From positions 46,228-110,227 of the IMG/VR virus record IMGVR_UViG_3300031949_000008: DNA of 64,000 nucleotides; one strand, given 5' to 3'. Of the stretch, positions 5,668-32,280 are shown one piece after another. The DNA comes from a virus. Numbering within the stretch: the first letter of the stretch is position 1; every line of letters starts with the position of its first letter. Below the pieces are notes generated by a model. The model did no database searches and was not told where the DNA came from. It was given only the letters and a program-made list of their open reading frames with translations. The position numbers were made by a program, and so were the translations under genes.

Positions 5668-5689
5668 TATAACGCCTTAGTTAGGCGGA

Positions 5690-5938: not shown

Positions 5939-5970
5939 GTCACAAAATCCTTGCTCAAACTACTTATATA
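5937..5970. promoter_or_regulatory. Bipartite motif copy 2 (plus strand ATGTCACAA-N14-CTACTTATATA)
   Basis: Same motif and spacer as the other four copies; opposite orientation to copies 1, 3, 4 and 5. Confidence 0.55.
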
Positions 5971-5997
5971 AGTGAAAACTGAGTGAAACGAAAGTAT

Positions 5998-6240
5998 TCA
6001 CTTTATAAACAATTTAATAAATATAGCCGTACAGACACTAGCAATAATACCCATCATAGCACCCCACATAGATGCCTTTGTTTTTAAAACAGCTTGATCT
6101 ATAACACATAAATCCAATTTAGTATCTATATGTACAAGAGCTGTTTTAAGTTCTTGATGTACTATATCATTAGTATTTAATCGTTCTACAATCTGTCCTA
6201 ATATATAATTAAGATCTTTACTAAGGTCTTTATCTTCCAT
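5998..6240 (-). CDS. Small membrane protein (holin/hemolysin XhlA-like)
   Basis: Coiled-coil N-terminus plus one C-terminal hydrophobic helix. Confidence 0.45.
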   Translation of the reverse strand: MEDKDLSKDLNYILGQIVERLNTNDIVHQELKTALVHIDTKLDLCVIDQAVLKTKASMWGAMMGIIASVCTAIFIKLFIK

Positions 6241-6242
6241 AT

Positions 6243-12116: not shown

Positions 12117-12125
12117 ATTAATTCC

Positions 12126-14063
12126 TTATTTTATAATAGGTAATGGAACTTTCCGCTGAGTTAAAATTTCTGCTACTGTTTGCCATACTAATTCTGGATT
12201 ACCTGAATTAGATGCTGTAGCAATTCTATAACGTTCATCTTGTGTCAAAAATGGTTGTTTTTTACTCTGTAAAAATGTATTTACACTATCAAATACAGGT
12301 TTATTTTTATGTAATATAACTGTATCTATACTTGACCTAACAGCAGGATCATCTGTCCATGCTTTTAAAGTATCATATGTTTTTGCCACATTAGGTGGGG
12401 CCATTTTAGCAGAAGTACTAAAAGGTTCTGGTAAATTGGCTGCAGTTGCGTCATCTGTAAATAATATCTCTAATGGAGAGTGTTTATATTTATCAGAAAA
12501 TATTTTTTCTTTAATTGGATTACCAACTGCTGCTTTAGCTTCTTGTTTAATCTTCTCAGCGACTTTAACTTCAACTGGTGCATGTGGAGTTGGTGTTTTT
12601 GTTTCCAAACCCAATGCTGTACGCATTGTATCATTTTTAAAGAAATTTGCAGTGTCTTTATCTGTAAATATCTTATCAAATGACTTTAATCCAGGATCTC
12701 TTTCTATTAATGCTAATGCTTTTGCTTGAGCAGTATTCACATTTGTCATTGCTTGATATGCTTGTATATTTTTAGTTATAGCTTTTGCTCTTGCTATATC
12801 AGGTGGAGTCTGTGACATAGTACTTTGTAACTGTGTCCCCATATAATCTAAATATTCTTTACTCCCACCACGAGATATAAAACGTGCGCGATCTCTAGGC
12901 ATTCCAGTATCTACTAAACCTTGTTCTGCTATATTCCAAAGAGCTTTCTGTTGGGTTTCCATTCGTTCTTCTGGAGTCTGATATAATTTTAATTGTCCAG
13001 TAGTTGGATCATACCCTTGTCGAATAATCTTAGCAGCTTCTTCAGATGGAACACCAAGATTTGATGCTACAGCCTTAATAAAAGGAAGGCTATTCATTAA
13101 CTCTGGTTTTGATTTGGCAGCCACTTCTAAGAATTTTGCTTGTCTTTCTCTATCTGCTTCTTCTTTCTGTATTGTTTGTTGCAAGCCAAGAAGTTTAAGA
13201 TTCGCTACTTGAGCTGCTCGTTGAACAATAAAATTACGTTTCTGAGTTGCTTTAGCTTCTATATCTGCTTCTTCTGTACGTATAACATCATAAGGTTCTT
13301 TTCCAGCAGATCGCTTTAAAGCCAATAATCGTCCAGCCTCACCTAACCATTCCAGCATATTACCAGGTTTTTTATATTCTGGTTTAGGCAAATCTTCCCA
13401 TTTAGGAATTACTTCATCCATAATCTGTTTAAGACTTTCCATAAAATCCGTCTTAGGTTTCCACGGCGTTATACCTGCAGCAATATCTTCTTCTGTTGGT
13501 ATTTCAGCTGGAGGAGGTACAACCGTAGGTGGTGTAACTTCTTCTGGTATAGGTACAAATTCTGGAGTTTCTAGTTTAGGAATTGTACTATACTGTGGCC
13601 CTCCAACTTGTTGTCCACTTTCAGGTATAGAAGGTGTTTGTCTTGTTGCTTTACTTACTGGTGCTGGCGAAATTGGCTCATTGCCTTCATCTACATTAAA
13701 TACTGCTGTTGATGGTTTAGTTTTACCAGTTTTACTTATAGAAATACCTTCTGGAGTTAAAGAAAGACGTGAAAGAAAATCTTCTATACTACCTTTAACA
13801 TATTGAGATGCTCGTACTGGAGCAAATAATGTTTTTTCAATCCCTTCTTGTAGTGCTTGTGCCGAAGGGCTGGGGCCGATAACTGTACTTTCTGGAGTTT
13901 GTTTTATAGATATTGGAGAAAGTGATTTTAGAAAATTCATTAAAACTGATTGACTCTCTCCAGATGCTATCTGTGGTTCTGTTGTTAAATCTGGAACACT
14001 TCCAGGAAACATCATTTGTTGGTAATACTCCAAGATTCTTGGATTAATGCTATTTATATCCAT
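12126..14063 (-). CDS. Internal virion / ejection protein
   Basis: 645 aa, Pro-rich then helical; position in the ejectosome cluster. Confidence 0.5.
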   Translation of the reverse strand: MDINSINPRILEYYQQMMFPGSVPDLTTEPQIASGESQSVLMNFLKSLSPISIKQTPESTVIGPSPSAQALQEGIEKTLFAPVRASQYVKGSIEDFLSRLSLTPEGISISKTGKTKPSTAVFNVDEGNEPISPAPVSKATRQTPSIPESGQQVGGPQYSTIPKLETPEFVPIPEEVTPPTVVPPPAEIPTEEDIAAGITPWKPKTDFMESLKQIMDEVIPKWEDLPKPEYKKPGNMLEWLGEAGRLLALKRSAGKEPYDVIRTEEADIEAKATQKRNFIVQRAAQVANLKLLGLQQTIQKEEADRERQAKFLEVAAKSKPELMNSLPFIKAVASNLGVPSEEAAKIIRQGYDPTTGQLKLYQTPEERMETQQKALWNIAEQGLVDTGMPRDRARFISRGGSKEYLDYMGTQLQSTMSQTPPDIARAKAITKNIQAYQAMTNVNTAQAKALALIERDPGLKSFDKIFTDKDTANFFKNDTMRTALGLETKTPTPHAPVEVKVAEKIKQEAKAAVGNPIKEKIFSDKYKHSPLEILFTDDATAANLPEPFSTSAKMAPPNVAKTYDTLKAWTDDPAVRSSIDTVILHKNKPVFDSVNTFLQSKKQPFLTQDERYRIATASNSGNPELVWQTVAEILTQRKVPLPIIK

Positions 14064-14074
14064 ATTATCCCTCT

Positions 14075-15022
14075 TTATGCTGTTTTAACTCCACCTAATG
14101 CTGCTAACACTCCACCTAACTGACTCAAAAGTGACTGATCAGTTGATGCTTTATTAAATCCACCTGTACCACGTTCTACTGCTTGTAGAATATTTGCTAA
14201 ATTAGCAATATTTCCTTGTGTATAAGTCTGTGGATAATTTGCCATTCCTAGTGCACTAGATAATTGATTAGGCATAGCTATATTAGATGCTTGTTGTGCT
14301 TGTGCTTTAGCTTGTTGTAATGCTGTAGCTAATTGTGTCATATAATCATTTTCTTGAGAAACCTGTGAAATCATATTCTGAACCACAGGGCCTTTAGAAT
14401 ATGCATTAGGAGCCACTCTACCTAATTTAGATGATAAGGCAGCTTCTCGTGCAGCCTGTGTCTGTGGTATCATATTTTCTGCATTCTGCCAAGTCTGTGC
14501 TGGAAATACATTTAAAAGTGATCCTAAATCCATTTGATTATATAATGATTGAGCTTGTGGTGTCATGGTAAGTGGTTGCTGTTGTGCAAGATTAAATACA
14601 CTTTGTCCAGCTGGAGATGCGATAGGTGTTCTATTAATATCCATAGTCTGTGTTGGCGTTCCACCAGCTATTGATGCAGCTGCTCCTCCTAATCCAAGTA
14701 AACCTTTACCTGTGGATGAAGATAAAAAGTTCAACAATCCAGAACCTAATGATCCAAGTGTACTACCAATTCCACTAAGAAATGATCCACCAGTAGATGG
14801 AGAACTTGGAGATATCCAATTTCCTGCATCATCGCGCATATATCCTAAAGCTTCTGGATCAAACTGACTTACCCAGTCTTGGGCTGACTGAGTAGAATTA
14901 TAAGGAGATGAATATGAGTCATTCATCCAACTCGTATCACTCAAAAATGAATTGAGATCAAAGCCTCCCATTCCACTTAAATCTCCACCAAAATCATATC
15001 CTGAGAAATCCCAATCTTCCAT
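14075..15022 (-). CDS. Internal virion / ejection (pilot) protein
   Basis: Gly/Ser/Gln-rich, amphipathic GG..LG repeats typical of ejection proteins. Confidence 0.55.
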   Translation of the reverse strand: MEDWDFSGYDFGGDLSGMGGFDLNSFLSDTSWMNDSYSSPYNSTQSAQDWVSQFDPEALGYMRDDAGNWISPSSPSTGGSFLSGIGSTLGSLGSGLLNFLSSSTGKGLLGLGGAAASIAGGTPTQTMDINRTPIASPAGQSVFNLAQQQPLTMTPQAQSLYNQMDLGSLLNVFPAQTWQNAENMIPQTQAAREAALSSKLGRVAPNAYSKGPVVQNMISQVSQENDYMTQLATALQQAKAQAQQASNIAMPNQLSSALGMANYPQTYTQGNIANLANILQAVERGTGGFNKASTDQSLLSQLGGVLAALGGVKTA

Positions 15023-15038
15023 ATTATTCTAGCTCCTT

Positions 15039-15584
15039 TTAGAAATGTATCCGAAATATTGTTAAATTGATATGTTGTATAGTAATATCATTAGTATTTG
15101 TTAAATTTTGTACTTGTAATTTTATTGTATCATCATAACGTATTTCAAATGTACTATTACCAGATACATTGAATACTTGATTTACTGCTAATACAGGGGC
15201 TACTAGATGCATTGTTGCAGTTGTCTGCCATACATTATTAATAGCAATAGCAAATTCAAAATCTTGTGTTCCAACAGATACTGGATCAAATGCTATTGAA
15301 TATAATATAATAGTATGACCTGTTATTAAACTTCTAAATTCTTTTGTATTTTCAAATATAAAACCACTTTCATGATCAGCAGTATAACCATCAATATCTA
15401 CAGGTGTTGCTGTAGCAGCAATACTTATTAACTGATTAAGATTATTAGCATACGCATGAGCATGTGGTGTCTGTTCTAAATCATTTATATGTTGTTCCAG
15501 TAAACGAATTCGCTCAGATAATGCAATTGCATTTTTCTGTGTCCATTTATCATCTAAAAGTAATGTTCCTCTACTAATTCCCAT
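15039..15584 (-). CDS. Putative tail-associated protein
   Basis: Coiled coil followed by a beta-sandwich (BclA/C1q-like) C-terminus. Confidence 0.4.
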   Translation of the reverse strand: MGISRGTLLLDDKWTQKNAIALSERIRLLEQHINDLEQTPHAHAYANNLNQLISIAATATPVDIDGYTADHESGFIFENTKEFRSLITGHTIILYSIAFDPVSVGTQDFEFAIAINNVWQTTATMHLVAPVLAVNQVFNVSGNSTFEIRYDDTIKLQVQNLTNTNDITIQHINLTIFRIHF

Positions 15585-17224: not shown

Positions 17225-19246
17225 TTAAAATAAGTCTACTGGCAATCGATGCATTGCAAAATATGTAAATGCAGTATTACCAAATATATAATCGTTTTCT
17301 AATGTTTTAGTATATGCTATTTTTATTGTATCACCTGGAACAAGAAATAATATAGAAAATGTATTTACTGTTTGGTATGGAGATGTTACAGCTTCATGTA
17401 TGGGTCTATAAGTAGATTGATATAATATATTATTTTTATATACATGTAACCCCATAACAGGACGAGACGGAAACCATTGTAATGATAAATAACATTGACT
17501 TATATCAGCAGAACATCCAGCAGAGGCTAGAGTTGCACTATAGCCGAATCCTTGTATACCAGATACTGAAGCAGCAGTCCAAGCTAAGCCAGTAGATGGA
17601 TCAAGAGTCCAACGTTCATTATAATCTACGAAAGATGATGTCAACATAGTAGAAGTACCAAGATAATTAATATCACCTTTTCGTAATACAGTAGCTGGTA
17701 TTGTTTCAGCTTCTAAATAACATGTAGTATCACAGGTACAACCTGCTGATCCATATGTGGTATTATAACAAGTAACACAATCATATACATAACATGTAGC
17801 ATTACAAGAACAAGCTGCATATCCATAACAGACATTATAACAAGTACAAGATCCTTTAATATATACATAACATGTATTATTACAACTACAAGAGCTATCT
17901 CCATAACAGGCATTATTACAACTACAACTATATCCATAACATGCATTATTACATGTACAGTTTTCACCATAACATGTATTATTACATATACAACCACGCC
18001 TTCGACTTCTAAAATTTACAGTAACTACAAAAGGGCTAACTTCTGTATATAGTGTTCCTAATCCCCCTGAAAAAATATCTGTTGCACCGCATGTTTGTGT
18101 AGTATTAAAATCTGCATCATTTGCAGTTGGATAATCATCAATAGCTAAAAGATTACTTGCAGCACCAGAAACTGTCCATGTAACAATAGGAGCACCGGTC
18201 TGTAATTCTATTCTCCTAACCCCCATGTAGGTAGCATTTCCCCAATTGTCTGCAAACTTGAAGGCATAATAACGATAGGAGGTTGTATTTGTGACTTCAA
18301 TATATTTAGGATCAGAAGCATCAGCAACAGCATGCTGGTCAAAGGTAGATTGTGCTGTCGTTAGCTGTACCCATGTACCATCATTCGCATAAACTAAATC
18401 AGCAAAATCACCAGAGGCAGTTGATCCCCAAAAAGTAAAATTTTCAACTCCACGATCTGTCTGTGTTCCGACGTGGTGGAAATTTTCATAATAAATTCGT
18501 TTTATAATTTTTTCTGAACCAAGGTCTATATGAAATCTTTGATTAGTCACAACCCCACTTTGAGACATCCAAGAATTATTTTCATAAGTTCCAGTCAAAG
18601 ATTTTGCCGGATCTGTGGCAAAATAAGGCCAAGAATCTGTAGCATATTTAGTTGTGGCCTTAACATAGGTATCATTATGAGCGGGTGGATATTGAGATCC
18701 TTGTCCTGGAGGTATTCCTGTAGCTGATGTCACACTACTTGTAAGTTGTGTTCCAGATGCTACCATTGTAAGTTGTCCTATAAGTAAATAATATCCAGAT
18801 GCTAATGCTGTAAATATACCACTTGTATGATCATATTCATTTAAAGTATCATAATCCTCTGTATCAAAAACTAAAGTATTAGCAGATGCTCCTGCAGTTA
18901 CTATCACAGTATTTGTACAGGCTGCTTTAAATCTAGACCAATAATTCTGACTCAATCGTAGCCAATTACTACCACTATATTTAACTAATACACCTAATGT
19001 AGTATCAAATGCCAATGCTCCAGACATTGGACTAGTTAATGCAGCAATTTGAGTTGTTGTTCCCTCATATATTGCGCCAACAGAGCCAATCCTATGTTCA
19101 CCAGATAACCCAACACTACCAGATGCTGGACTATAATGTTCTATATTATATGCATCTTCGATAGCAGAAAAATTCTGTTGTAGGATATTGGGAATTTGTT
19201 TAATTTCATTTTCACTATTAGGGTATACCTTTTTCCATTGTCCCAT
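17225..19246 (-). CDS. Mosaic tail fibre/appendage protein (C1q-like domain, discoidin-like insert, CxCxxxCY repeat insert)
   Basis: N-terminus paralogous to 19255 and 19979 ORFs; FDTEDYDTLNEYDHTSGIFTALASGYY C1q-like signature; IDLGSEKII...YRYYAFKF F5/8C-like segment; Cys-rich block. Confidence 0.65.
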   Translation of the reverse strand: MGQWKKVYPNSENEIKQIPNILQQNFSAIEDAYNIEHYSPASGSVGLSGEHRIGSVGAIYEGTTTQIAALTSPMSGALAFDTTLGVLVKYSGSNWLRLSQNYWSRFKAACTNTVIVTAGASANTLVFDTEDYDTLNEYDHTSGIFTALASGYYLLIGQLTMVASGTQLTSSVTSATGIPPGQGSQYPPAHNDTYVKATTKYATDSWPYFATDPAKSLTGTYENNSWMSQSGVVTNQRFHIDLGSEKIIKRIYYENFHHVGTQTDRGVENFTFWGSTASGDFADLVYANDGTWVQLTTAQSTFDQHAVADASDPKYIEVTNTTSYRYYAFKFADNWGNATYMGVRRIELQTGAPIVTWTVSGAASNLLAIDDYPTANDADFNTTQTCGATDIFSGGLGTLYTEVSPFVVTVNFRSRRRGCICNNTCYGENCTCNNACYGYSCSCNNACYGDSSCSCNNTCYVYIKGSCTCYNVCYGYAACSCNATCYVYDCVTCYNTTYGSAGCTCDTTCYLEAETIPATVLRKGDINYLGTSTMLTSSFVDYNERWTLDPSTGLAWTAASVSGIQGFGYSATLASAGCSADISQCYLSLQWFPSRPVMGLHVYKNNILYQSTYRPIHEAVTSPYQTVNTFSILFLVPGDTIKIAYTKTLENDYIFGNTAFTYFAMHRLPVDLF
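17718..17992 (-). repeat. Eight tandem C-x-C-x-x-x-C-Y peptide repeats (one degenerate)
   Basis: CICNNTCY/CTCNNACY/CSCNNACY/CSCNNTCY/CTCYNVCY/CSCNATCY/CVTCYNTTY/CTCDTTCY; 23 Cys in about 92 aa. Confidence 0.95.
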
Positions 19247-19254
19247 AATAATTC

Positions 19255-19971
19255 CTAGCAGATTCTATAAATATTAAGGAAGTTACGGTCTGAACCTCCT
19301 ACTAATACAATACTTGTTGTACGTGAATGTGTTACTTTTACCTTTATTTTATCTCCAGCTATTAATGATAAAATAGTTGTAATTCCCTGATACAATTCAT
19401 CAGATGATAATGTGTAACAATATGTCACAGGAGATGTTTGTAATATATCACTAGAATTATATTGCTCAATTAACATATTAATTGCAATAGCACCAATAGC
19501 AGTAAAACTTGCCTGTGCACGAATAAAATAGAATCCAGCAGCTTTAGCTATAAATGTATAGGTTGTATTATTATATTCATCCAAATTATCTATAGATTCT
19601 GTATCAAATGGAATAAGTCCAGTTGTTCCAGCAGTAATAAGATAATCTGTACTACGATATGCTATTACTTCACTATGATTCAATAAATTTATCTGTTGCC
19701 AAGTAGCTCCAGTAAATACATTAGATACTCCTAATACTGTATCTTGTGCCATCGCTCCTGTTGAAGGATCTGTAATAGCCGTGATACCAGATGTTGTAGT
19801 AGATGTTATAACAGGTAAAATACCAGGTTTATGTCGCCCAGATAATACAACAGTTAATCCATTATGCTCTAATGCACTCATATCTTCAATAGCTGTCCAA
19901 TTACCTACATAGATACTAGAAATATCTACAATAAATGAACCTGTGGTAGGTACTGTTTTACTCCATGCCAT
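19255..19971 (-). CDS. Tail appendage protein with C1q-like domain (paralog 2)
   Basis: NWTAIED..H...SGRH.PG N-terminus; IPFDTESIDNLDEYNNTTYTFIAKAAGFY. Confidence 0.6.
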   Translation of the reverse strand: MAWSKTVPTTGSFIVDISSIYVGNWTAIEDMSALEHNGLTVVLSGRHKPGILPVITSTTTSGITAITDPSTGAMAQDTVLGVSNVFTGATWQQINLLNHSEVIAYRSTDYLITAGTTGLIPFDTESIDNLDEYNNTTYTFIAKAAGFYFIRAQASFTAIGAIAINMLIEQYNSSDILQTSPVTYCYTLSSDELYQGITTILSLIAGDKIKVKVTHSRTTSIVLVGGSDRNFLNIYRIC

Positions 19972-19978
19972 AATAATC

Positions 19979-20692
19979 CTAAGATAATCTTATAATATGT
20001 AAACTTGCATTTACAAGTGTAATAGAAGATGTATGTTCCTGATAACCATATAGTTCAATTTCATCACCTGTTACCAATGATAAAATATCTGCTACATCTA
20101 CATTTCGCATGGCTGCACCATAAAGCACTGATTTACTCCATAGTATACTATTTAAACCTATTGCAATACCTTTTTGATAATTTAGTACTGTTTCATGAGG
20201 AAAACGAATACTAGCTTTAATAAAATAAATACCAGTATTAAGTACAGTAAAACGTCTTGTAGTAGAATTAAATTCTGACAAGGTATCATAATATACTCCA
20301 CTAGTAGCACCTGCTGATGTTAACTTTGTCCATGCACTAGTAGGAATTGTCTGTTCATTAAAAACTACTCGTAATCTAGAATATTTATTAGCTGTAAGTT
20401 GTCCCCATCCAGTTGATCGATAAATTAAAGTTTGTCCATTGGTAGTATCGTAACCAATAGCTCCAGTTCCTGGTGATGTTGCTGTTGTAATAGTAGTATT
20501 AGTATCTACAAGAAGTATTCCAGATTTACCTGCAATATGTTGTCCACTGCCGCCGCTGGTAAAAGTTTGATGATCAATATCCCACCAATCCTCAATAGCT
20601 TTCCAATTATTTCTAATTTGAGAATTAGGATCATCTGCAACTGATCCACTCACTGATGTTGAACCTAGCGGAAAATTAGCATTCCAAGTCAT
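19979..20692 (-). CDS. Tail appendage protein with C1q-like domain (paralog 1)
   Basis: NWKAIED...H...SGQHIAG N-terminus; YDTLSEFNSTTRRFTVLNTGIYFI. Confidence 0.6.
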   Translation of the reverse strand: MTWNANFPLGSTSVSGSVADDPNSQIRNNWKAIEDWWDIDHQTFTSGGSGQHIAGKSGILLVDTNTTITTATSPGTGAIGYDTTNGQTLIYRSTGWGQLTANKYSRLRVVFNEQTIPTSAWTKLTSAGATSGVYYDTLSEFNSTTRRFTVLNTGIYFIKASIRFPHETVLNYQKGIAIGLNSILWSKSVLYGAAMRNVDVADILSLVTGDEIELYGYQEHTSSITLVNASLHIIRLS

Positions 20693-20695
20693 ATA

Positions 20696-21046
20696 TTAGT
20701 TCTCTAGATAATGTTTTATATTCTCTATTTTGTCTATATAAGGTTCAAAATGACCAAGCATTAAATTACATGCACGATGTAAAAGTCCTCGTATTTTATT
20801 AGTATCATGGTCATGGTCTACAACAGCTGAAGAAAAGTCAAGAGGTTGTTCACAAATAGGGCATATCCCATTTTGAGATTTCCATATATTCATATACTCA
20901 TCTTGTGTTAGACCATAGGAATATAATATTTTACGCCATTTGTTATAATCTTTATTTGCAACATACCATTTACGAGAATTTTTGGTAATTTTATCTTTAT
21001 GTTCTTTATAATATTGTTTTGCTTCTATTTTAGTTTTGAAGGGCAT
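20696..21046 (-). CDS. Endonuclease VII-type HNH homing endonuclease
   Basis: YGLT...Q..CPIC...VDHDH...IRGLLHRACN..LG. Confidence 0.8.
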   Translation of the reverse strand: MPFKTKIEAKQYYKEHKDKITKNSRKWYVANKDYNKWRKILYSYGLTQDEYMNIWKSQNGICPICEQPLDFSSAVVDHDHDTNKIRGLLHRACNLMLGHFEPYIDKIENIKHYLEN

Positions 21047-22035
21047 TATTTATTTTCCCACCGTGTATTTAATTTCATAAGTAAAGGAAATAATTTCTTA
21101 AATTCTTCACAAAAAGGACTCTTATGTCCATACTCACCAAAGGTGAGCTTTTGAACATAAGGGCATCCAGCCTGACAAAGAGTTACCCATTCACAGTCAT
21201 GACATTCTGGTATATTCTTAGCACTCCATCTTTGAGGACATTTTAAATCACTCCAATGTATATGAGTATCTATATGTCCAATTACTGTATCTTTGTCAGG
21301 ATTACAACTTCTTAATGTTCCATCAGGATCTATAATCACTAACCACCGACCACAGGAATACGGATTTTTCACACTTTTCCAAGATGGGTATGTAGATTCC
21401 ACAATCCAGTTAGGCCAGATTGGTCGTGGAGAGGCCAATAAAATTTCTAAAACTTCCTTCATTTGCTTTCCATATTCTTTTACATATTCAGAATCTTTTC
21501 CACCATCATATAATCTATTAATTCTCATTTGACAATGATGCTTAACTGCCAATTGAGCTAAATTAGTAATCCTTGGCATGTTAACTTTATTCAATACTAT
21601 TGAAAGAGTACAACCACCACATATGGCTTTAATCTGGCAAATTTTATCTTCTATTCGTGCCAAACTGTCATATGTGGGATTCAGTGCTATTTTTATTCTT
21701 CGCACTTTAAATACTTTTAAAATATCCTTTGTTAAAAGATCACCATTTGTATGAAATATATGACCATCAGGAGGTAGAGGTGTCACCCACCCTATGTTCG
21801 ATTCCATCTGGTCTACTAGATATAATACAGTATCTACAACATTTAATGGTTCTCCACCAAGAAATGACACCCTGAGATGTTCAACTTTCTCTTCAATACA
21901 AATATTTTTAAGCCAATTAATTGCTTTATCTGCTATTTCTATAGACATATTTTCATTGACTGATGGATTGTAGCAACCATCACATCCCCTATGACATATA
22001 TTTGTAGGAAAAAAGAATACCATTAAATTATGCAT
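21046..22035 (-). CDS. Radical SAM/SPASM-domain protein (2)
   Basis: CHRGCDGC, FLGGEPL, HTNG, SCG...DPDGTLRSC, C-terminal CHDC.....CQAGC. Confidence 0.9.
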   Translation of the reverse strand: MHNLMVFFFPTNICHRGCDGCYNPSVNENMSIEIADKAINWLKNICIEEKVEHLRVSFLGGEPLNVVDTVLYLVDQMESNIGWVTPLPPDGHIFHTNGDLLTKDILKVFKVRRIKIALNPTYDSLARIEDKICQIKAICGGCTLSIVLNKVNMPRITNLAQLAVKHHCQMRINRLYDGGKDSEYVKEYGKQMKEVLEILLASPRPIWPNWIVESTYPSWKSVKNPYSCGRWLVIIDPDGTLRSCNPDKDTVIGHIDTHIHWSDLKCPQRWSAKNIPECHDCEWVTLCQAGCPYVQKLTFGEYGHKSPFCEEFKKLFPLLMKLNTRWENK

Positions 22036-22744
22036 TCTGTAACTTCTTTACCTGTTTTGCTGCATTATCCATTTCTTTTATCCAACGTTTAATTGTTTCT
22101 AAACTTCTATTAGGAACTGCACTCATATATGTTACTAAATCCATACTATTATAGATCTCACCATTAAATTCAAGTATAGCAAAATGATTATCATTATATT
22201 TAAAAGGATGGTTTATACTAATATATTTCTGAACATCTGGTGTATCACTTATATATCTTTTACCAATACACGGCATCTTATTCATATCGATAATATCATA
22301 GAAAAATAAAGATGCACTTGATTTAATAGGAACATAAGCATATAAATACTTTGCAATTCCAGATTTAAACATTAAATGAAGAAAATCTGACATTAAATAA
22401 CGCACGTATTTTGTTTGTCGATATTCAGGATATACTAATTTAATATTCTCAAAATCATATTTACCATACCCATCAGGATTGTCTAATATTTCCTGAGATA
22501 AAATACATCCAATACATATATCGTCTTTATACGCATAAATACAATATTTACGATCAATCTGACTTCCTTTATTAATATTTATAGAAGTAGTATGAGTTAA
22601 ATATGTTGGATTATATTTAAAGAACTTTCTTGTGATCTCACGTTCTTCAAGAGAAATATCGTTTACATCTTTATATAATATGTTAGGAAATATAATAATA
22701 CCTTCTGAAGGTAGTAATCTATCCCAATTTTGCAAAAAATACAT
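22028..22744 (-). CDS. GNAT-like acyltransferase (divergent)
   Basis: YAYKDDICIGCI strand followed by motif-A-like LVYPEYRQTKYVRYLM. Confidence 0.45.
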   Translation of the reverse strand: MYFLQNWDRLLPSEGIIIFPNILYKDVNDISLEEREITRKFFKYNPTYLTHTTSININKGSQIDRKYCIYAYKDDICIGCILSQEILDNPDGYGKYDFENIKLVYPEYRQTKYVRYLMSDFLHLMFKSGIAKYLYAYVPIKSSASLFFYDIIDMNKMPCIGKRYISDTPDVQKYISINHPFKYNDNHFAILEFNGEIYNSMDLVTYMSAVPNRSLETIKRWIKEMDNAAKQVKKLQNA

Positions 22745-23375
22745 GTCGTTTGTAGCCCTCTAGATCAGTAATTTCATCTGCTATAGGTGTCATATCGTCT
22801 ATATAACTAACTGGTAGAATTCTATATAATTCAGATTTCTTCAATTCTTTAAAACAAAATTCCATAAATGTATTTGTACATTCTTGTACTATTGCTTTAT
22901 CTTTAGAAGCAATAGCTCGTTCCCAATGTGATTTATCTTTATAATTAAATAATACCTCTCGCGATATAGGTTCCCAATTATATATTACATACCACGAATC
23001 TGCAGAATCATATACAACATCATCTACTAAATAAGCCATTAAATATTCATTAGTTATATGACTATCATTAAAGAATGATTTCATATATCTTGTAGCTGCA
23101 CCAACACTCATTATCTCAACTTTATCTTTTTTATAATGAATAATAGGTGCATCTCTATTAATTGTTAATTCACCTTTAATATAACGACTAATCATATCTT
23201 CTGGTGAATAAGTTGCTAATTTTAAATTAGTATATTTATTAACTAATTCAGTCCAAGGAGCAATAGCTATAAAAAATAAATTATCTCCTTCAGCTTCTGG
23301 AATAGGGTACTTAATATTCTGACGTAAGCGTAGGGCATTTGCAAATGGGTAAATTCTAGGCATCAGTCGCCTCAT
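22719..23375 (-). CDS. Hypothetical protein in the radical SAM operon
   Basis: Translationally coupled to both neighbours; no motif recognised. Confidence 0.55.
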   Translation of the reverse strand: MRRLMPRIYPFANALRLRQNIKYPIPEAEGDNLFFIAIAPWTELVNKYTNLKLATYSPEDMISRYIKGELTINRDAPIIHYKKDKVEIMSVGAATRYMKSFFNDSHITNEYLMAYLVDDVVYDSADSWYVIYNWEPISREVLFNYKDKSHWERAIASKDKAIVQECTNTFMEFCFKELKKSELYRILPVSYIDDMTPIADEITDLEGYKRHVFFAKLG

Positions 23376-24169
23376 TATTTCTCATAGTCTATCTCCTCAA
23401 TTACTATGATGCCTTCATCTGTTGGAAATGTAAACTGTGCAACCTCTAAACGACCTGGAACTAGACCACCTTCAAATACCAAAATATCTTTAATTTTACA
23501 TGTATTTAATACATATGCATCATTTAATTCCTGTACAAGTTTGTCATTTTTACCTATTTTATATCTATCTTTAGCGCCATCAAGCATATATCTTATTCTA
23601 TTTATAAAATTATTATACATAGATGGTATTTTATTAAAAGAACTTTGTTCTCTAATTTTTGTTATTGAACTTTTAATAACTTTAGGAAAGATTTCTATAT
23701 CAACACTATTTCCTAATTTACTCACAGATTTTTGAAAAAATGATGCAATATCTGGTCCTTTGATAATAATATCATTTCTACTAACAGTTGAATGTTGAAA
23801 AGCCATTGCACCCATTACTATAGCAGTAGCTCTTTGAATATAATCATCAGTCAATAAAAAATCTTTATATAATGATACAAATGCAGCAGCTTTTTGAGCC
23901 ATTGGTGCTCTCCAACTTTCGTCTATTTTAAATGCATTTTGATCTTCAACTATAAATCCTTTATCTATAATATCTTGTACCATTTTTTGTGATTTCTTTT
24001 CAGGAGCAAAACCCAAACCTAGTGTTAAATGGTTTAACCAATCACGAGGTCGTCCTACAACTTTTACTACATATGTTCCAGGAAATGTTTTAGCAAAATC
24101 TAATAATGCCTGATGTCCAGCATGTAGACCTTCAGAATGATTTGCTATCGGGACTATTACTCTACCCAT
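23375..24169 (-). CDS. HxGH nucleotidyltransferase-fold, pantoate-beta-alanine-ligase-like protein
   Basis: GLHAGHQALLDFAK; KGPD...VDIEIFPKVI...EQSSFN parallels PanC FGEKD...VEIVGVPTVRE...SSRN. Confidence 0.55.
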   Translation of the reverse strand: MGRVIVPIANHSEGLHAGHQALLDFAKTFPGTYVVKVVGRPRDWLNHLTLGLGFAPEKKSQKMVQDIIDKGFIVEDQNAFKIDESWRAPMAQKAAAFVSLYKDFLLTDDYIQRATAIVMGAMAFQHSTVSRNDIIIKGPDIASFFQKSVSKLGNSVDIEIFPKVIKSSITKIREQSSFNKIPSMYNNFINRIRYMLDGAKDRYKIGKNDKLVQELNDAYVLNTCKIKDILVFEGGLVPGRLEVAQFTFPTDEGIIVIEEIDYEK

Positions 24170-24171
24170 AT

Positions 24172-25392
24172 TTAACCCCTTCGCTCCAGTGCAGAAACAC
24201 GATTATTCAAATCTGATATTAATAATGCTATCGTTTCCAAAGAAATCGTGGGAGGATTGTCTATTACTGGACCTGTATAATGTTCAAAATTGCAAATACA
24301 GTTTTTATCTTGTGATATAGCCTTATCACCTATTTTTTCTTTATAATACATTGATATCTTTTTTTGTACTTCGACATATTTACATAATCCTATATGAGGA
24401 ATTTTTATATCACCAGTAAAGTCAAAGTTGACCGCATAACATCCCGAATTGCAAGGAGTATCTTTAAGCCTTGCACATCCATTACATTGATTATGAGAAA
24501 AATCTATAAATGACTGTCTAAATTCTGATCTAGTAATTCCATGATCAATATGACCAATACAAATTTCTTTATCTTGCCATGCTCGTTTATCGTCAAATTT
24601 GAAAAATCGGTGACAGGGCGCTATGGCTCCATCAATATCTATTCCAACATAATTACGTCCTCCACCACATGGATATTTGCTATTATCAGCTGCCTGATAT
24701 GATTTAAAATGTTCTATTTCAATAATATGACCATTATCACGATAAGTTTTTAATAGATCTACTATCTTATATCCTTGTTCTTCAAAGATTTTCCACTTTT
24801 CATCTGTCCATTTTGTCTCATAAACTGGAGAAAAGATTATAGAATTAAAACCAAAATCGATTAAGTACTTAACATCATTATATAAGTTATGAATGCTATC
24901 AGCCGTGAGGCCTAGTCTTGGTCTATAGAATGGCCATCTCTCTAATACTTTTTCCATATTTTTCATAATGGTAGCATGAGAACCCTGACCATCTTTAAAT
25001 CTTCTATAGAAATCATGTGTTTCTTGTGTACCATCTAAACTGACTAAGAAAAATATCTTATGTTCATCTAAAAAATCAAATTTCTCTTCAGTCAATAATG
25101 TACCATTAGTCGTACCACCAAAAGTAACAGGCACCACAACCTGTACACTTTTCTCCTTTGCGTAAAGAACAATCTTTTGTAATAATGACCACTCTAGTAA
25201 TGGTTCGCCTCCCCAAAAACTAATTTCAACAGGATTAACTTTATCAGCATTTTTGAAAAGAAAATCTACAGCTTTATAAGCAATTTCTTCTGACATACGG
25301 CCAACTCTACATCCATATGTAAAACAGTATGAACATGCTAAGTTACAGTTTCTAGTTAAATTTAATGATGCACGTGTTATTGGATAGTTCAT
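24172..25392 (-). CDS. Radical SAM/SPASM-domain protein (1), peptide-maturase-like
   Basis: CNLACSYC, ISFWGGEPLL, TTNGTLL, VSLDG..ETHD..R, PCGGG...DIDGAIAPCHRF, CNGC......CNSGC. Confidence 0.95.
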   Translation of the reverse strand: MNYPITRASLNLTRNCNLACSYCFTYGCRVGRMSEEIAYKAVDFLFKNADKVNPVEISFWGGEPLLEWSLLQKIVLYAKEKSVQVVVPVTFGGTTNGTLLTEEKFDFLDEHKIFFLVSLDGTQETHDFYRRFKDGQGSHATIMKNMEKVLERWPFYRPRLGLTADSIHNLYNDVKYLIDFGFNSIIFSPVYETKWTDEKWKIFEEQGYKIVDLLKTYRDNGHIIEIEHFKSYQAADNSKYPCGGGRNYVGIDIDGAIAPCHRFFKFDDKRAWQDKEICIGHIDHGITRSEFRQSFIDFSHNQCNGCARLKDTPCNSGCYAVNFDFTGDIKIPHIGLCKYVEVQKKISMYYKEKIGDKAISQDKNCICNFEHYTGPVIDNPPTISLETIALLISDLNNRVSALERRG

Positions 25393-26939
25393 ATAAGTTT
25401 TAAAAGTTCTTCCATAAATTGAGAATTTGTTCCTAATTGTTTTGATAAACTTTGTGGATCTCCTATACGTTGTAATACACCAAATGATGGATTAAGAGAT
25501 GATGGTATCGGAGTCAGTGGTTGTATATCAGATACTTCTCCTAATGAAGTAGATGTTCCTGCTTGTTGTTCTAATACTGATGTTAGTGATTGTGGTTGAC
25601 TTCCTAATGTAGAAGATATTGCTGGTTGTATTTCATTAGTCTTATTAAAAAAAGCTGCTTGTTGTTCTGGAGTCATTTGCCAAAGTGGTGTTGTTATTTC
25701 TTTTGAAACATTATATGCAGCATAAGGATTTGGTGGGCTTTGATACCATCCTCCCTCCATATAAGGCCACATATTTCCCTCAAGATCTGTCTGACGTTGG
25801 GCCTCTGCTGTATATTGATTATACCCACTTTCACTATAAGTAGGATTTGCTACTGTTTGATACCAAGGAATTTTAGATGTATTTTCACCAGATAAAGTAG
25901 GACTTCCTAATAACTGTTCATGAGTACCAGCTACGGTAGTTCCATAATTCAATGCTAATCCAGATTCATTCGTGGGAGATATTCCCTCATATGGATTTCC
26001 TGTCATAGACATTAATAGATTTGAAGGAGCTTCTTTTTGATATTGTTGTTCCCACCAAGATGAAGGCAGATTTGCAACATCACCAGTTCCATATGCTCCT
26101 GTATACATACTTGCTGGACTATATGAAGTCCATCCTTGAGAAGGATCATATACCCAACCAGTTGGCCCACCTCCTGTAGTTGCTCCACGAAGTTGAGACA
26201 TAGCAGTCGTTTCTTCTCCTGTATACATGCCTGTTATTTGGCCATTATTACCTTCTACATACATATTATTCATTTTTGCTATACCATAGATATCATAATC
26301 AGTATAGCCCTGTGCTTTTAATTGTTCAACTCGTTTAGCTCCACTATTGAATATAGGTGTTATTGCCTCACCAATTCTTTTTTGCATTTTTTCATCTCTG
26401 CTACCAAATGCTTCAAATAACATAGCAATTCCAGGCCCGATTAAAGGAATATTACTAGCATAACTAGCATATGGATTAGTGTAATTTTGACCTGCTTCCA
26501 TAGTGACCATAGATTGAAAAGGAGCGATTTGAGATGCAAGACCACTAAAAGTATTTCCCACTACATTTCCTAATACCGTTCCTAATCCTTTACCAATCAA
26601 ATTTCCAGCCATACTATTAACACCTGGGGATATAGTCGCTCCTGTTCCAAGGGCAGGTATATTTAATAGTCCACCAAGAGTACTTGATAATTGTGAAGTC
26701 ATCCAAGGAAGAACAGGATTATCTCCCATTATTCCACCAGCTGATTTAAGTCCTGCTGATCCCAGTAGTCCTAATATACCAGAAAGAGAGAGTTCAGGTG
26801 TAGTTCCACCTAAACCCAATTGAGATGCTAGAGCTTGTATTCCTGTACTACCAGCGTTCTGTCCAACATTAGATAGAACACTATTTAAATAACTTGAAAG
26901 TGATGGTTGTGCTGTCGGAGTTGTATCTGTTATTGCCAT
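25389..26939 (-). CDS. Putative internal virion / ejection-like protein
   Basis: 516 aa, Gly/Ser/Thr/Gln-rich with amphipathic LG repeats. Confidence 0.4.
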   Translation of the reverse strand: MAITDTTPTAQPSLSSYLNSVLSNVGQNAGSTGIQALASQLGLGGTTPELSLSGILGLLGSAGLKSAGGIMGDNPVLPWMTSQLSSTLGGLLNIPALGTGATISPGVNSMAGNLIGKGLGTVLGNVVGNTFSGLASQIAPFQSMVTMEAGQNYTNPYASYASNIPLIGPGIAMLFEAFGSRDEKMQKRIGEAITPIFNSGAKRVEQLKAQGYTDYDIYGIAKMNNMYVEGNNGQITGMYTGEETTAMSQLRGATTGGGPTGWVYDPSQGWTSYSPASMYTGAYGTGDVANLPSSWWEQQYQKEAPSNLLMSMTGNPYEGISPTNESGLALNYGTTVAGTHEQLLGSPTLSGENTSKIPWYQTVANPTYSESGYNQYTAEAQRQTDLEGNMWPYMEGGWYQSPPNPYAAYNVSKEITTPLWQMTPEQQAAFFNKTNEIQPAISSTLGSQPQSLTSVLEQQAGTSTSLGEVSDIQPLTPIPSSLNPSFGVLQRIGDPQSLSKQLGTNSQFMEELLKLI

Positions 26940-31195: not shown

Positions 31196-31227
31196 AAATA
31201 TTATCCAGTTACTCCGGTCAATAAGGC
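30547..31227 (-). mobile_element. Group I intron 2 in the major capsid gene
   Basis: R-like GTAGAGACTGAGC and S-like GATGCTACAGTCC elements; P9 hairpins; ends ...TAACAAAAATG; exon GCAU|GC can pair with GCGUGC (30766-30771), giving the U-G splice pair. Confidence 0.8.
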
Positions 31228-32280
31228 ATGCTTCTCTTCATTATGGAACTCAAAGCCGATTTCGCAAATATACTGATCTTTTACGAAATCGTCTCCTGGA
31301 TGCTGAATATCAGCTTCCATCGTTACGTCTCTATTCTGAAGATAGCGATAAACCATCTCGTCGAGTTTCAACGCAAACGCATAGCCACCATACAAAGAAG
31401 TATTCGACACAGAACCAGCGTTTTCTAGCATATAGTCCTTGATCAAATTCAAGGTTCCATGAGGAGAGAGATACTGAGCAATTGCAATTCCGTAGGTTTT
31501 ATCCTTGGAATACATCTGCAATTTGCCCTGCGCCCATTGACTAATTACGGATATGATAAGAGGAGAAGCCAATAAATACACTTCGTCTCCACCAAATCTC
31601 GTCACTGTCCTAATGAAAGCCTCAAAATCGGATTCAGTAAGAATTCCGCCAACTGCTGTCACGTTTGTGCTGATAAAATAATCAGCTCCACCTGACGTTC
31701 GCCGTGCGTGAGAGATAGTTGCATCTAACCCACTCGACGTGTCTTCTAACCGCTCGCCATATAAAGCCATACGCTCGATGTCTCGCATTAACTCAATACC
31801 CTTTACCTTCCGCTCATACGCACGATAATTTCCGCCGTACAATTCAGAATTTAACATCGAATTAGTCACCTCAACGGATTTTCTAATAGTCTGTAGATAA
31901 TTGAAAACACGAGCAGCTTTGCGACTCTTGGACACTAATGCAGTAGAAGCAGAACCTTCCTCAAATGCCGCACCGATGATCACCATAGTAGAAGAATTTG
32001 CTGCACTAGCTGCAGTTGTTGCGCCATACGCTCTAATAGCCGTAACCGCACATGCTGCAGTTGCTGTAATAAGAATAACTTCACCAGTAGCAGGAATCTT
32101 AACGAGATCATACTTGTTAAAGTAGTTACCTTCGTTAGTTGCCACAGTAAAATTAGTCGCAGCAGATGTAGCAGAAGCTGCCAAAGATGACCAAGATGGA
32201 TTTAAGTCGTTTTCAGGCCATTCGATTGTAGTATTAATAGCAACTCGTTTATTAAGACGAGAAACTAGAACATACAAAGG
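31201..32280 (-). CDS. Major capsid protein (SU10/DUF5309-like), exon 2 (31228-32280) plus the unspliced C-terminus
   Basis: EWPEND, NYLQTIRKSVEVT, ELMRDIERMALYG, R.SGG...I.TN, E.GFE..NE..H; the true N-terminus is exon 1 at 33031-33138. Confidence 0.9.
   Translation of the reverse strand, partial: PLYVLVSRLNKRVAINTTIEWPENDLNPSWSSLAASATSAATNFTVATNEGNYFNKYDLVKIPATGEVILITATAACAVTAIRAYGATTAASAANSSTMVIIGAAFEEGSASTALVSKSRKAARVFNYLQTIRKSVEVTNSMLNSELYGGNYRAYERKVKGIELMRDIERMALYGERLEDTSSGLDATISHARRTSGGADYFISTNVTAVGGILTESDFEAFIRTVTRFGGDEVYLLASPLIISVISQWAQGKLQMYSKDKTYGIAIAQYLSPHGTLNLIKDYMLENAGSVSNTSLYGGYAFALKLDEMVYRYLQNRDVTMEADIQHPGDDFVKDQYICEIGFEFHNEEKHALLTGVTG

What the first reader, a model, noticed from the sequence alone, without database searches (positions are those of the whole stretch)
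17225..25392. Candidate RiPP-like virion-modification system: twin radical SAM/SPASM operon among tail genes, next to a tail protein with CxCxxxCY repeats
Seen in sequence: five tightly packed or overlapping enzyme-like genes (rSAM/SPASM 24172-25392, PanC-like HxGH protein, unknown, GNAT-like, rSAM/SPASM 21046-22035) lie inside the late structural operon, between tail fibre and nozzle genes. About 3 kb downstream, the tail protein 17225-19246 contains eight C-x-C-x-x-x-C-Y units (17718-17992). Established: rSAM/SPASM enzymes such as ranthipeptide and sactipeptide maturases form Cys-thioether or aromatic crosslinks on Cys-rich precursor peptides. Inference: here the substrate is not a free peptide but a segment built into a virion appendage, so the phage may crosslink, acylate or ligate its own tail fibre to stiffen it, protect it from proteases or alter receptor binding. 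No separate short Cys-rich precursor was noticed near the operon.
Basis: partly seen in the sequence, partly recalled or inferred. Interest (0 to 1): 0.92.

Follow-up and report, generated by a model that had tools for sequence, protein, structure and literature searches.

The report
Phage enzymes that staple tail-fibre cysteine repeats
This uncultured 110-kb phage encodes peptide-cross-linking radical-SAM enzymes next to a tail-fibre protein with eight cysteine-rich repeats. The same enzyme and repeat travel together in dozens of unrelated phages, so the phage very probably hardens part of its own tail chemically, which no paper I found describes for any virus.

Summary
The 673-aa C1q-like tail protein (17225-19246, minus strand) carries eight C-x-C-N-x-x-C-Y units at 17717-17992. 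These hold 23 of its 27 cysteines and form the only such array in the 110-kb genome. Upstream lie a CteB/PapB-like radical SAM/SPASM enzyme without a leader-binding domain, a PanC-fold ligase, an unknown gene, a GNAT-fold protein and a second radical SAM/SPASM enzyme.

Orthologues of the first enzyme fall into 52 clusters at 70% identity. Of the 29 clusters with at least 3 kb upstream visible, 22 have a repeat ORF nearby; in the 80 metagenome loci these ORFs were always on the enzyme's strand and mostly directly upstream. None of 64 phage loci with distant radical SAM genes has one.

The repeat sits in unrelated tail proteins (J-like central fibre, collar fibre, baseplate) or in small all-repeat proteins. 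Most orthologous enzymes carry a repeat-like unit in their own C-terminal tail.

The chemistry, probably Cys-Asn/Asp thioethers, is inferred and untested. The nearest published precedent, CrpC/CrpA (2026), is archaeal and not viral. This scan has already reported analogous phage systems with other cysteine repeats on other DNA.

The parts
24172..25392 (-). rSAM1: radical SAM/SPASM enzyme, 406 aa, CteB/PapB-like catalytic core without an N-terminal RRE. CX3CX2C at residues 16-23; SPASM Cys at 242, 260, 303, 306, 314, 318, 337.
   Evidence: Pfam Radical_SAM 57.7 bits. NCBIfam PapB model 261 bits over 5-329/330 (cut-off 340). Profile versus PDB: CteB 5WGG E 8e-53, aligned to CteB 99-446. Cys positions.
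24271..24300 (-). Repeat-like motif CICNFEHYTG in the C-terminal tail of rSAM1, followed by a heptad-like segment (24184-24240).
   Evidence: Alignment A2. 37 of 59 unique orthologue tails carry C-x-C-[NDYH]-x3-[YFH]-x-G, and many also carry a full G-C-[IV]-C-[YN]-N-M-C-Y unit.
23375..24169 (-). PanC-fold HxGH (HAGH, residues 16-19) nucleotidyltransferase-superfamily protein, a putative ATP-dependent ligase. Accessory.
   Evidence: No Pfam, PHROG or NCBIfam hit. Profile versus PDB: PPAT E 8.5e-4 and the PanC HxGH region. AF2 model pLDDT 67.6. Foldseek top 50 are all pantothenate synthetases, E 1.6e-6, TM 0.42. Orthologues sit in the same position in L004, L005, L006, L009.
22719..23375 (-). 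218-aa protein of unknown function, seen only in this phage and its closest relative L005.
   Evidence: No family hit. tblastn finds only L005, at 50% identity.
22028..22744 (-). GNAT-fold protein, a putative acyltransferase, always paired with rSAM2.
   Evidence: Pfam Acetyltransf_1 18.5 bits, below the cut-off. Atlas features 0.96 to viral GNAT clusters, structure TM 0.52-0.56. Adjacent to rSAM2 in L004, L005, L006, L009, L020.
21046..22035 (-). rSAM2: second radical SAM/SPASM enzyme, 329 aa, CX3CX2C at residues 14-21. It belongs to the peptide/protein-maturase group, but its chemistry cannot be assigned.
   Evidence: NCBIfam SPASM domain TIGR04085 36.5 bits (cut-off 27). Weak hits to PapB, DynA, YhhB and others. 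PDB profile: CteB E 1.3e-13, anSME E 5e-9. In the complete 37.7-kb genome G003 it stands with GNAT, without rSAM1, beside a 204-aa all-repeat protein.
17225..19246 (-). P0001: 673-aa C1q/BclA-like tail-fibre protein with nested inserts. Proposed substrate.
   Evidence: Pfam C1q, DUF5000 and F5/8-type-C, all weak. The N-terminal ~170 aa are paralogous to the two upstream C1q-like fibre genes. Homologues P0002-P0011 all carry the array.
17717..17992 (-). Array of eight 11-14-residue units C-[ST]-C-[ND]-x-T-C-Y-G (residues 419-510). Proposed modification site.
   Evidence: Consensus from 230 units in 24 proteins: position 4 is N 68%, D 22%, Y 9%; position 8 is Y 84%; period 11-12. No Pfam or NCBIfam family.
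19255..20692 (-). Two C1q/BclA_C-like fibre paralogues (19979-20692 and 19255-19971). Context, likely fibre partners of P0001.
   Evidence: Pfam BclA_C and C1q, PHROG tail fibre. Syntenic in L004, L005, L006.

Best explanation
The cysteine-repeat array in the tail-fibre protein P0001 is the substrate of the phage's own radical SAM/SPASM enzymes.

Proposed steps, all inferred:
1. rSAM1 is a CteB/PapB-type enzyme with three [4Fe-4S] sites and no leader-binding RRE domain. It recognises the repeat units directly; there is no leader peptide.
2. It abstracts a hydrogen from an acceptor side chain in each unit. The most likely acceptor is the beta-carbon of the Asn/Asp at position 4. Thr/Ser at positions 2 and 6 are alternatives.
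3. It joins that carbon to a neighbouring Cys sulfur, giving small thioether (ranthionine) rings. The geometry would be C1-x-x-N4 or N4-x-x-C7.
4. rSAM2, with its constant GNAT-fold partner, performs a second modification on the same units. In this lineage the PanC-fold ligase and the 218-aa protein add further tailoring.

The product would be a covalently stapled, reduction- and protease-resistant rod or knob in the distal fibre, made in the reducing host cytoplasm where disulfides cannot form.

Shown here: the gene content, the enzyme family and the genomic linkage. Inferred: substrate identity (I put it at about 0.8), thioether chemistry (about 0.55) and the structural role.
For: 1. Linkage starting from the repeat. 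Every phage contig found through the repeat that has enough DNA also carries an rSAM1 or rSAM2 orthologue: the L004/L005/L006 lineage, L007, L009, L011 (22 kb away), L020, L021 and L027.

2. Linkage starting from the enzyme, viral contigs. 14 of 16 rSAM1-orthologue loci have the repeat in the locus or contig. None of 64 loci with distant radical SAM genes does.

3. Linkage starting from the enzyme, metagenome contigs. 49 of 80 orthologue loci have the repeat, many of these contigs being under 3 kb. All 45 strictly scored repeat ORFs are on the enzyme's strand, mostly directly upstream. At 70% clustering, 22 of the 29 clusters with at least 3 kb upstream visible have it.

4. The repeat keeps its enzyme across unrelated host proteins: C1q-like fibre, central-fibre-J-like, collar fibre, baseplate-like, and 100-250-aa all-repeat proteins.

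5. rSAM1 is closest to thioether-forming maturases. CteB scores E 8e-53 with all seven SPASM Cys conserved, and PapB is the best NCBIfam model. Its nearest cellular relatives, in Myxococcota at 25-27% identity, sit next to CADDPC-repeat peptides.

6. Asn/Asp fills position 4 in 90% of 230 units. Asn and Asp are the acceptors in NxxcA and freyrasin (PMC8326336). C-x-x-Q/D is the motif cross-linked in CrpA (PMC13692751).

7. P0001 holds the only array in the genome.

8. Most orthologous enzymes carry a repeat-like unit in their own tail.

9. rSAM2 plus GNAT alone accompany an all-repeat protein in a complete genome that lacks rSAM1.
Against: No biochemical or proteomic data exist, and the phage is uncultured.

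rSAM1 scores below the curated cut-off of every named maturase family (PapB 261 against 340), so its chemistry cannot be transferred by membership.

Seven of the 29 well-flanked clusters show no repeat within the visible DNA, for example L040, L221 and L248.

Asn/Asp at position 4 stays conserved in the genome that has only rSAM2. It may therefore be structural, as in an Asn ladder, and not an acceptor.

AlphaFold2 gives the array no confident fold (pLDDT about 23).

Three Cys per unit could equally serve metal binding.
Confidence: 0.6

Rival explanations
1. Same substrate, different chemistry. The enzymes act on the repeat array but install something other than Cys-Asn/Asp thioethers. Candidates are a Tyr-centred C-C cyclophane on Y8-G9-X10, a sactionine (alpha-carbon) thioether, Cys oxidation to formylglycine as in anSME, epimerisation, or methylation.
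For: Tyr at position 8 is 84% conserved. rSAM2 has weak hits to cyclophane-forming enzymes (YhhB, DynA, XyeB, FxsB) as well as to PapB. anSME is among the PDB matches of both enzymes. No curated family cut-off is reached by either enzyme.
Against: For rSAM1, the thioether maturases CteB and PapB score far above all other families. A link between Tyr8 conservation and presence of rSAM2 was tested and is not clean: L208/L209 and L216 keep Tyr8 without rSAM2 within 10 kb.
Confidence: 0.2
2. The repeat is a self-sufficient structural or metal-binding (Zn, Fe-S) module and is not modified. The enzymes are linked to it indirectly, for example by docking to the fibre through their own repeat-like tail and acting on another target, or by using the array as an iron-sulfur donor.
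For: There are three Cys per 11-12 residues. The 12-residue period recalls disulfide-braced beta-helices such as the beetle antifreeze protein (from memory, not tested). The enzyme tail carries one or two repeat-like units that could pair with the array. CrpA was itself suspected of metal binding (PMC13692751).
Against: The precursor-directly-upstream, same-strand arrangement seen in dozens of lineages is the classical substrate-maturase layout. The enzymes belong to peptide/protein-modifying families. No other candidate substrate is conserved beside them.
Confidence: 0.12
3. The cassette makes a separate product, such as a free RiPP, a small molecule or a DNA base modification, and lies among tail genes by accident.
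For: Phage radical SAM enzymes take part in DNA hypermodification (PMC8989533, listed). PanC-like and GNAT-like enzymes usually act on small molecules.
Against: There is no short precursor anywhere in the genome. Linkage to the repeat survives complete changes of gene neighbourhood and of host protein. rSAM1 alone, without the PanC-like or GNAT-like genes, accompanies the repeat in complete genomes.
Confidence: 0.04

Closest known systems
CrpC/CrpA of Methanococcus voltae (Dieter et al. 2026, PMC13692751; TIGR04463 family)
   Same: A radical SAM/SPASM enzyme installs ranthionine thioethers on a large Cys-rich repeat protein (28.8 kDa) encoded next to it, not on a short peptide. The motif is C-x-x-Q/D. 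The repeat region has a low-confidence AlphaFold model there too.
   Different: CrpC/CrpA is archaeal and cellular, not viral, and the paper does not mention phages. CrpC has an RRE, and CrpA has a 47-residue leader-like N-terminus. Here neither enzyme has an RRE, and all-repeat substrates start directly with a unit. The CrpA unit is 17 residues, against 11-12 here. rSAM1 scores only 66.5 bits on TIGR04463 (cut-off 525).
Ranthipeptide maturases CteB (SCIFF, PDB 5WGG) and PapB (freyrasin, NF047865)
   Same: These are the best structural and family matches of rSAM1. They share the full CX3CX2C and seven-Cys SPASM motifs. Their substrates are Cys-rich repeats with Asp, Asn or Thr acceptors.
   Different: rSAM1 scores below the PapB cut-off (261 against 340). 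CteB's N-terminal 98-residue domain is absent. The substrate is a domain of a 673-aa virion protein, not a leader-core peptide. The enzyme carries a repeat-like C-terminal tail.
QhpD/QhpC (quinohemoprotein amine dehydrogenase maturation)
   Same: A radical SAM/SPASM enzyme makes Cys-Asp and Cys-Glu thioethers in a protein subunit, not in a RiPP (PMC8326336). TIGR03906 is the third-best NCBIfam hit at 164.5 bits.
   Different: That score is far below the cut-off of 453. QhpC is a single small enzyme subunit without tandem repeats and has no virion context.
Other phage radical SAM plus Cys-repeat fibre systems reported earlier in this scan (CXXX-repeat/TIGR04115 type, D/N-C type)
   Same: The same idea applies: a maturase-type radical SAM/SPASM gene sits beside Cys-repeat tail-fibre proteins and recurs in many phages (unchecked AI notes).
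   Different: The repeat family here is different (C-x-C-[ND]-x-x-C-Y-G, period 11-12). TIGR04115 scores only 148.7 bits against a cut-off of 350. No look-alike sequence from another genome is in the scan's index. This cassette adds a PanC-fold ligase, a GNAT-fold protein and a second radical SAM enzyme.

Membership tests
Radical SAM/SPASM peptide/protein maturases (superfamily level) | CX3CX2C radical SAM cluster motif | tested here: met
   rSAM1 residues 16-23 and rSAM2 residues 14-21. Pfam Radical_SAM scores 57.7 bits for rSAM1; rSAM2 scores 26.5, below the 29.5 cut-off.
Radical SAM/SPASM peptide/protein maturases (superfamily level) | Seven-cysteine SPASM domain for two auxiliary [4Fe-4S] clusters | tested here: met
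   rSAM1 Cys 242, 260, 303, 306, 314, 318 and 337 align with the CteB SPASM cysteines. rSAM2 scores 36.5 bits on TIGR04085 (cut-off 27).
PapB-family ranthipeptide maturase (NF047865) | Score at or above the curated equivalog cut-off (340 bits) | tested here: not met
   rSAM1 scores 261.3 bits over model positions 5-329 of 330. rSAM2 scores 49 bits.
SCIFF maturase CteB type (TIGR03974) | N-terminal RRE/leader-binding domain plus a leader-bearing short precursor | tested here: not met
   rSAM1 aligns to CteB residues 99-446 only and starts at the radical SAM domain. TIGR03974 scores 160 bits (cut-off 425). Substrates have no leader.
Ranthipeptide or CrpA-type product | Non-alpha thioether (Cys S to the C-beta or C-gamma of an acceptor) actually formed | not testable with these tools
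   This needs co-expression and MS/NMR. Only the candidate motifs C-x-x-[ND] and [ND]-x-x-C are seen.
TIGR04463 (CrpC family) | Score at or above the cut-off (525 bits) | tested here: not met
   rSAM1 scores 66.5 bits and rSAM2 scores 39.1 bits.
CXXX-repeat maturase system (TIGR04115) | Score at or above the cut-off (350 bits), and a target with Cys at every fourth residue | tested here: not met
   The score is 148.7 bits. The repeat has Cys at positions 1, 3 and 7 of an 11-12-residue unit.
Pantothenate synthetase (PanC) | HxGH motif and the two-domain PanC fold | tested here: inconclusive
   HAGH is present. Foldseek's top hits are all PanC, at E 1.6e-6 but TM only 0.42. By sequence only the HxGH region matches, at E 0.34.
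Pantothenate synthetase (PanC) | Match to the PanC family model by sequence | tested here: not met
   No Pfam or NCBIfam hit at E 0.01 or better.
GNAT acyltransferases (PF00583) | Family model at or above the gathering score; GNAT fold | tested here: inconclusive
   Pfam gives 18.5 bits against a 20.7 cut-off. The PDB profile search found nothing. Atlas features score 0.96 and structure TM is 0.52-0.56 to GNAT clusters.
Phage tail fibre / receptor-binding protein (for P0001) | Homology to known fibre domains and position in the tail module | tested here: met
   The C1q/BclA_C-like N-terminal part is paralogous to two adjacent genes with PHROG tail-fibre hits. The neighbours are virion structural, portal and major head genes. 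No virion proteomics exists.

The most novel reading that the evidence does not exclude
A widespread, undescribed class of virion maturation. Many phage lineages build tail-fibre, baseplate or whisker modules from an 11-12-residue Cys repeat that only becomes a stable structure after leaderless, processive stapling by a dedicated radical SAM enzyme. The enzyme's own C-terminal repeat unit would serve as the built-in primer or template (or pseudo-substrate) that replaces the leader/RRE recognition of RiPP systems. A second enzyme set (rSAM2, GNAT, PanC-like ligase) would add a further, chemically new decoration that tunes receptor binding.
Probability: 0.3. Interest if true: 0.9.

Novelty: new variant of a known kind. 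Interest (0 to 1): 0.78.

Why it matters
If the modification is real, it would be the first enzymatically cross-linked structural protein of a virus particle made by RiPP-type radical chemistry. It would also be a natural example of leader-independent, repeat-directed thioether stapling of a full-size protein.

It would explain how phages of reducing or anoxic habitats obtain disulfide-like rigidity in host-binding organs. It would add a post-translational layer to host-range determinants that sequence-based receptor-binding predictions miss.

It would give protein engineers a portable pair, a short repeat tag plus an enzyme without a leader requirement, for making reduction-proof staples.

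The system is directly testable by co-expression and mass spectrometry, following the protocol just published for CrpC/CrpA.

Tried and rejected
1. Complex prediction of rSAM1 (alignment A2) with the array (P0001 residues 408-470), three 4Fe-4S clusters and SAM gave no verdict (score 0.02). It is evidence neither way.

2. AlphaFold2 of P0001 with a 9-row alignment gave pLDDT 44 overall and about 23 for the array. No fold could be read, so the beta-helix idea (a 12-residue period like the beetle antifreeze protein) stays untested.

3. Hypothesis that rSAM2 targets Tyr8. In the first nine lineages Tyr8 was 81-100% conserved where rSAM2 is present and 17-33% in two complete genomes with rSAM1 only. 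The larger metagenome set broke the pattern: L208/L209 and L216 keep Tyr8 without rSAM2 within 10 kb. I dropped it as unsupported.

4. Single-protein searches of viral contigs with rSAM1 found nothing, and megablast against GenBank phages found nothing. Only alignments and patterns reached relatives.

5. Host assignment failed. The closest hits in the genome collection are short MAG contigs binned with Bathyarchaeota, Thermoplasmata, Planctomycetia and Chitinivibrionales, probably phage fragments. No host can be named.

6. Pfam and NCBIfam searches for the repeat itself found no family.

The contexts of P0002-P0015 and the habitat could therefore not be read that way.

8. Single exact-pattern hits L016, L017, L019, L023-L026, L028, L030, L165, L167 and L169 had no real array and were treated as chance.

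9. The PDB profile search for the GNAT-like protein found nothing.

Full report
**What is there**

The window is the right-hand 64 kb of a single 110,227-bp virus contig. Positions 12-42 kb form one long minus-strand module of virion genes. It includes a portal/adaptor gene (36396-38189), a major head protein (31201-32283) and several 'virion structural' and tail proteins.

Inside this module lie six tightly packed or overlapping genes:
- rSAM1 (24172-25392)
- an HAGH-motif protein (23375-24169)
- a 218-aa unknown (22719-23375)
- a GNAT-like protein (22028-22744)
- rSAM2 (21046-22035)

Three paralogous C1q/BclA-like fibre genes follow. The last is P0001 (17225-19246).

P0001 residues 419-510 (window 17717-17992) hold eight units of C-x-C-N-x-x-C-Y. 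These contain 23 of the protein's 27 cysteines and are preceded by RSRRRG. A six-frame scan of the whole genome finds no second array and no short Cys-rich precursor.

**The enzymes**

rSAM1 has the CX3CX2C motif and all seven SPASM cysteines. A profile of seven orthologues matches the SCIFF thioether maturase CteB (PDB 5WGG) at E 8e-53. The match covers only CteB residues 99-446, so the N-terminal leader-binding domain is missing. The best NCBIfam model is the PapB ranthipeptide maturase, at 261 bits over the whole model. Every named family, PapB included, stays below its curated cut-off.

rSAM2 is a shorter, more divergent radical SAM/SPASM protein of the same broad maturase group. No chemistry can be assigned to it.

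The HAGH protein has no sequence family. Its AlphaFold2 model (pLDDT 67.6) retrieves only pantothenate synthetases with Foldseek (E 1.6e-6, TM 0.42). A profile search touches phosphopantetheine adenylyltransferase and the PanC HxGH region. It is a PanC-fold, probably adenylate-forming ligase, but not a PanC.

The GNAT assignment is weak by Pfam and supported by the protein Atlas.

**The repeat**

Homologues of the array region (P0002-P0015) all carry the same unit in 4 to about 30 copies. The consensus from 230 units in 24 proteins is C-[ST]-C-[N 68%, D 22%, Y 9%]-x-[T]-C-[Y 84%]-[G], with a period of 11-12. No Pfam or NCBIfam model describes it.

The array is a mobile module that appears in several contexts:
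- in C1q-like fibres (this lineage)
- in central-tail-fibre-J-like proteins (L009, L191, P0015)
- in a collar-fibre-like protein (L237)
- in a baseplate-like protein (L027)
- as the bulk of small 100-250-aa proteins that begin directly with a unit and have no leader (L011, L020, L021)

**The co-occurrence test**

*From the repeat to the enzyme.* Loci found through the repeat alone fall into seven assessable lineages. All carry an rSAM1 or rSAM2 orthologue on the same contig. The orthologue is usually within 0-5 kb, and once 22 kb away (L011).

*From the enzyme to the repeat, viral contigs.* An alignment of rSAM1 orthologues retrieved 80 viral loci. Of the 16 true orthologues (185 bits or more), 14 have the repeat in the locus or contig. 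None of the 64 loci with distant radical SAM genes (100 bits or less, about 1 Mb of phage DNA) has it.

*From the enzyme to the repeat, metagenome contigs.* The same query retrieved 80 orthologue loci, many shorter than 3 kb. Of these, 45 have at least three strict units and four more have relaxed ones. Every strictly scored repeat ORF is on the enzyme's strand, and most lie immediately upstream.

*Clustered count.* At 70% identity there are 52 lineages. Of the 29 with at least 3 kb of upstream DNA visible, 22 have the repeat. Exceptions exist (L040, L204, L221, L225, L212/L219, L245, L248). The two most distant of these (25-29% identity) also lack the tail motif described below and probably lie outside the clade.

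*Nearest hits in prokaryotic genome bins.* Two short MAG contigs again have the repeat upstream (L123, L124). The Myxococcota relatives at 25-27% identity sit beside CADDPC-repeat peptides, that is, ordinary Cys/Asp-repeat precursor-like genes.

**Modularity of the cassette**

- Complete genomes exist with rSAM1 only: G005 (69 kb) and G009 (42 kb).
- One complete genome has rSAM2 plus GNAT only. In G003 (37.7 kb) these two genes directly follow a 204-aa all-repeat protein.
- Both enzymes are therefore independently tied to the repeat. GNAT is the constant partner of rSAM2.
- The PanC-fold ligase occurs only in fuller cassettes. The 218-aa protein occurs only here and in L005.

**A feature of the enzyme itself**

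In 37 of 59 distinct orthologues, the C-terminal extension of rSAM1 contains C-x-C-[NDYH]-x3-[YFH]-x-G. It is often preceded by a complete G-C-[IV]-C-[YN]-N-M-C-Y unit. In this window the motif is CICNFEHYTG (24271-24300), followed by a heptad-like segment.

An enzyme that lacks an RRE but carries one or two copies of its presumed substrate unit suggests three possibilities: a pseudo-substrate, self-modification, or a template on which the array docks. This is inference.

**Mechanism proposed**

Radical SAM/SPASM maturases of the CteB, PapB, NxxcB, QhpD and CrpC type abstract a side-chain hydrogen from an acceptor residue. They then join that carbon to a Cys sulfur held at an auxiliary cluster (PMC8326336; PMC13692751).

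The unit here offers both geometries already documented. C1-x-x-[N/D]4 resembles the C-x-x-Q/D motif of CrpA. [N/D]4-x-x-C7 resembles NxxcA. Ser/Thr at positions 2 and 6 are further possible acceptors.

I therefore expect one to three small thioether rings per unit. The result would be a covalently braced module that needs no oxidising compartment. The roles of rSAM2, GNAT and the PanC-like ligase remain open: a second cross-link, possibly involving Tyr8, and acylation or amidation.

My estimates: about 0.8 that the array is the substrate, and about 0.55 that the main chemistry is a non-alpha thioether.

**What failed or is missing**

- The complex prediction gave no verdict.
- AlphaFold2 gave no fold for the array.
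- A correlation between Tyr8 and rSAM2 did not survive the larger sample.
- The host and habitat could not be determined.

**Comparison with what is known**

Protein-level thioether installation by such enzymes has been shown for QhpC and, in September 2026, for the archaeal Cys-repeat protein CrpA. That paper does not mention phages. Full-text searches found no paper linking phage radical SAM/SPASM enzymes to Cys-repeat virion proteins.

Earlier notes of this scan report analogous pairings with other repeat types (CXXX, D/N-C) in many other phage genomes. The general idea is therefore not new to the scan. No sequence look-alike of this enzyme or repeat from another genome is in its index.

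I class this as a new variant of a known kind. The chemistry class is known. The target (tail proteins), the repeat family, the leaderless and RRE-less recognition with a substrate-like enzyme tail, and the accessory enzyme set are new.

Noticed in passing
window 20696-21046 (-): An Endonuclease VII/HNH-type gene (Pfam PF02945, E 8.6e-19) is wedged between rSAM2 and the first fibre gene, overlapping rSAM2 by one base. In the closest relative L005, rSAM2 is followed directly by the fibre gene, so this looks like a mobile homing-endonuclease insertion.
   Followed up: partly
L006:1840-8121 (102-kb relative, IMGVR_UViG_3300047198_000026): The cassette is partly duplicated: rSAM2-like, rSAM1, rSAM1, HAGH, GNAT, rSAM2 in a row. 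That gives two copies of each radical SAM enzyme ahead of one 621-aa repeat fibre.
   Followed up: no
L047 / L223 (255-kb jumbo-phage contig), about 4600-15100: Two large repeat proteins (646 and 779 aa, units mostly ending in Asn instead of Tyr) are followed by two rSAM1-like genes and a diverged rSAM2-like gene.
   Followed up: partly
L129 and L131 (Myxococcota/Deltaproteobacteria MAG contigs): Cellular relatives of rSAM1 (25-27% identity) lie next to ORFs with tandem CADDPC units. These are probable bacterial Cys/Asp-repeat ranthipeptide-type precursors.
   Followed up: no
window 18100-18700 (P0001 residues about 184-380); L001-L003: The DUF5000 / F5/8-type-C-like insert of P0001 is 50-63% identical to parts of proteins on three other viral contigs. 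Those contigs show neither the Cys array nor the radical SAM genes, so it is an independently shuffled module.
   Followed up: partly
window 25389-26939 (-): A 516-aa Gly/Ser/Thr/Asn/Pro-rich protein with no family hit lies directly upstream of rSAM1 and overlaps it by four bases.
   Followed up: no
window 17993-18010 (P0001 residues 413-418): A basic stretch, R-[SGA]-[RK]-[RK]-[RL]-G, immediately precedes the first unit in most C1q-type homologues. It is absent from the small all-repeat proteins. It could be a lineage-specific recognition or cleavage site.
   Followed up: no
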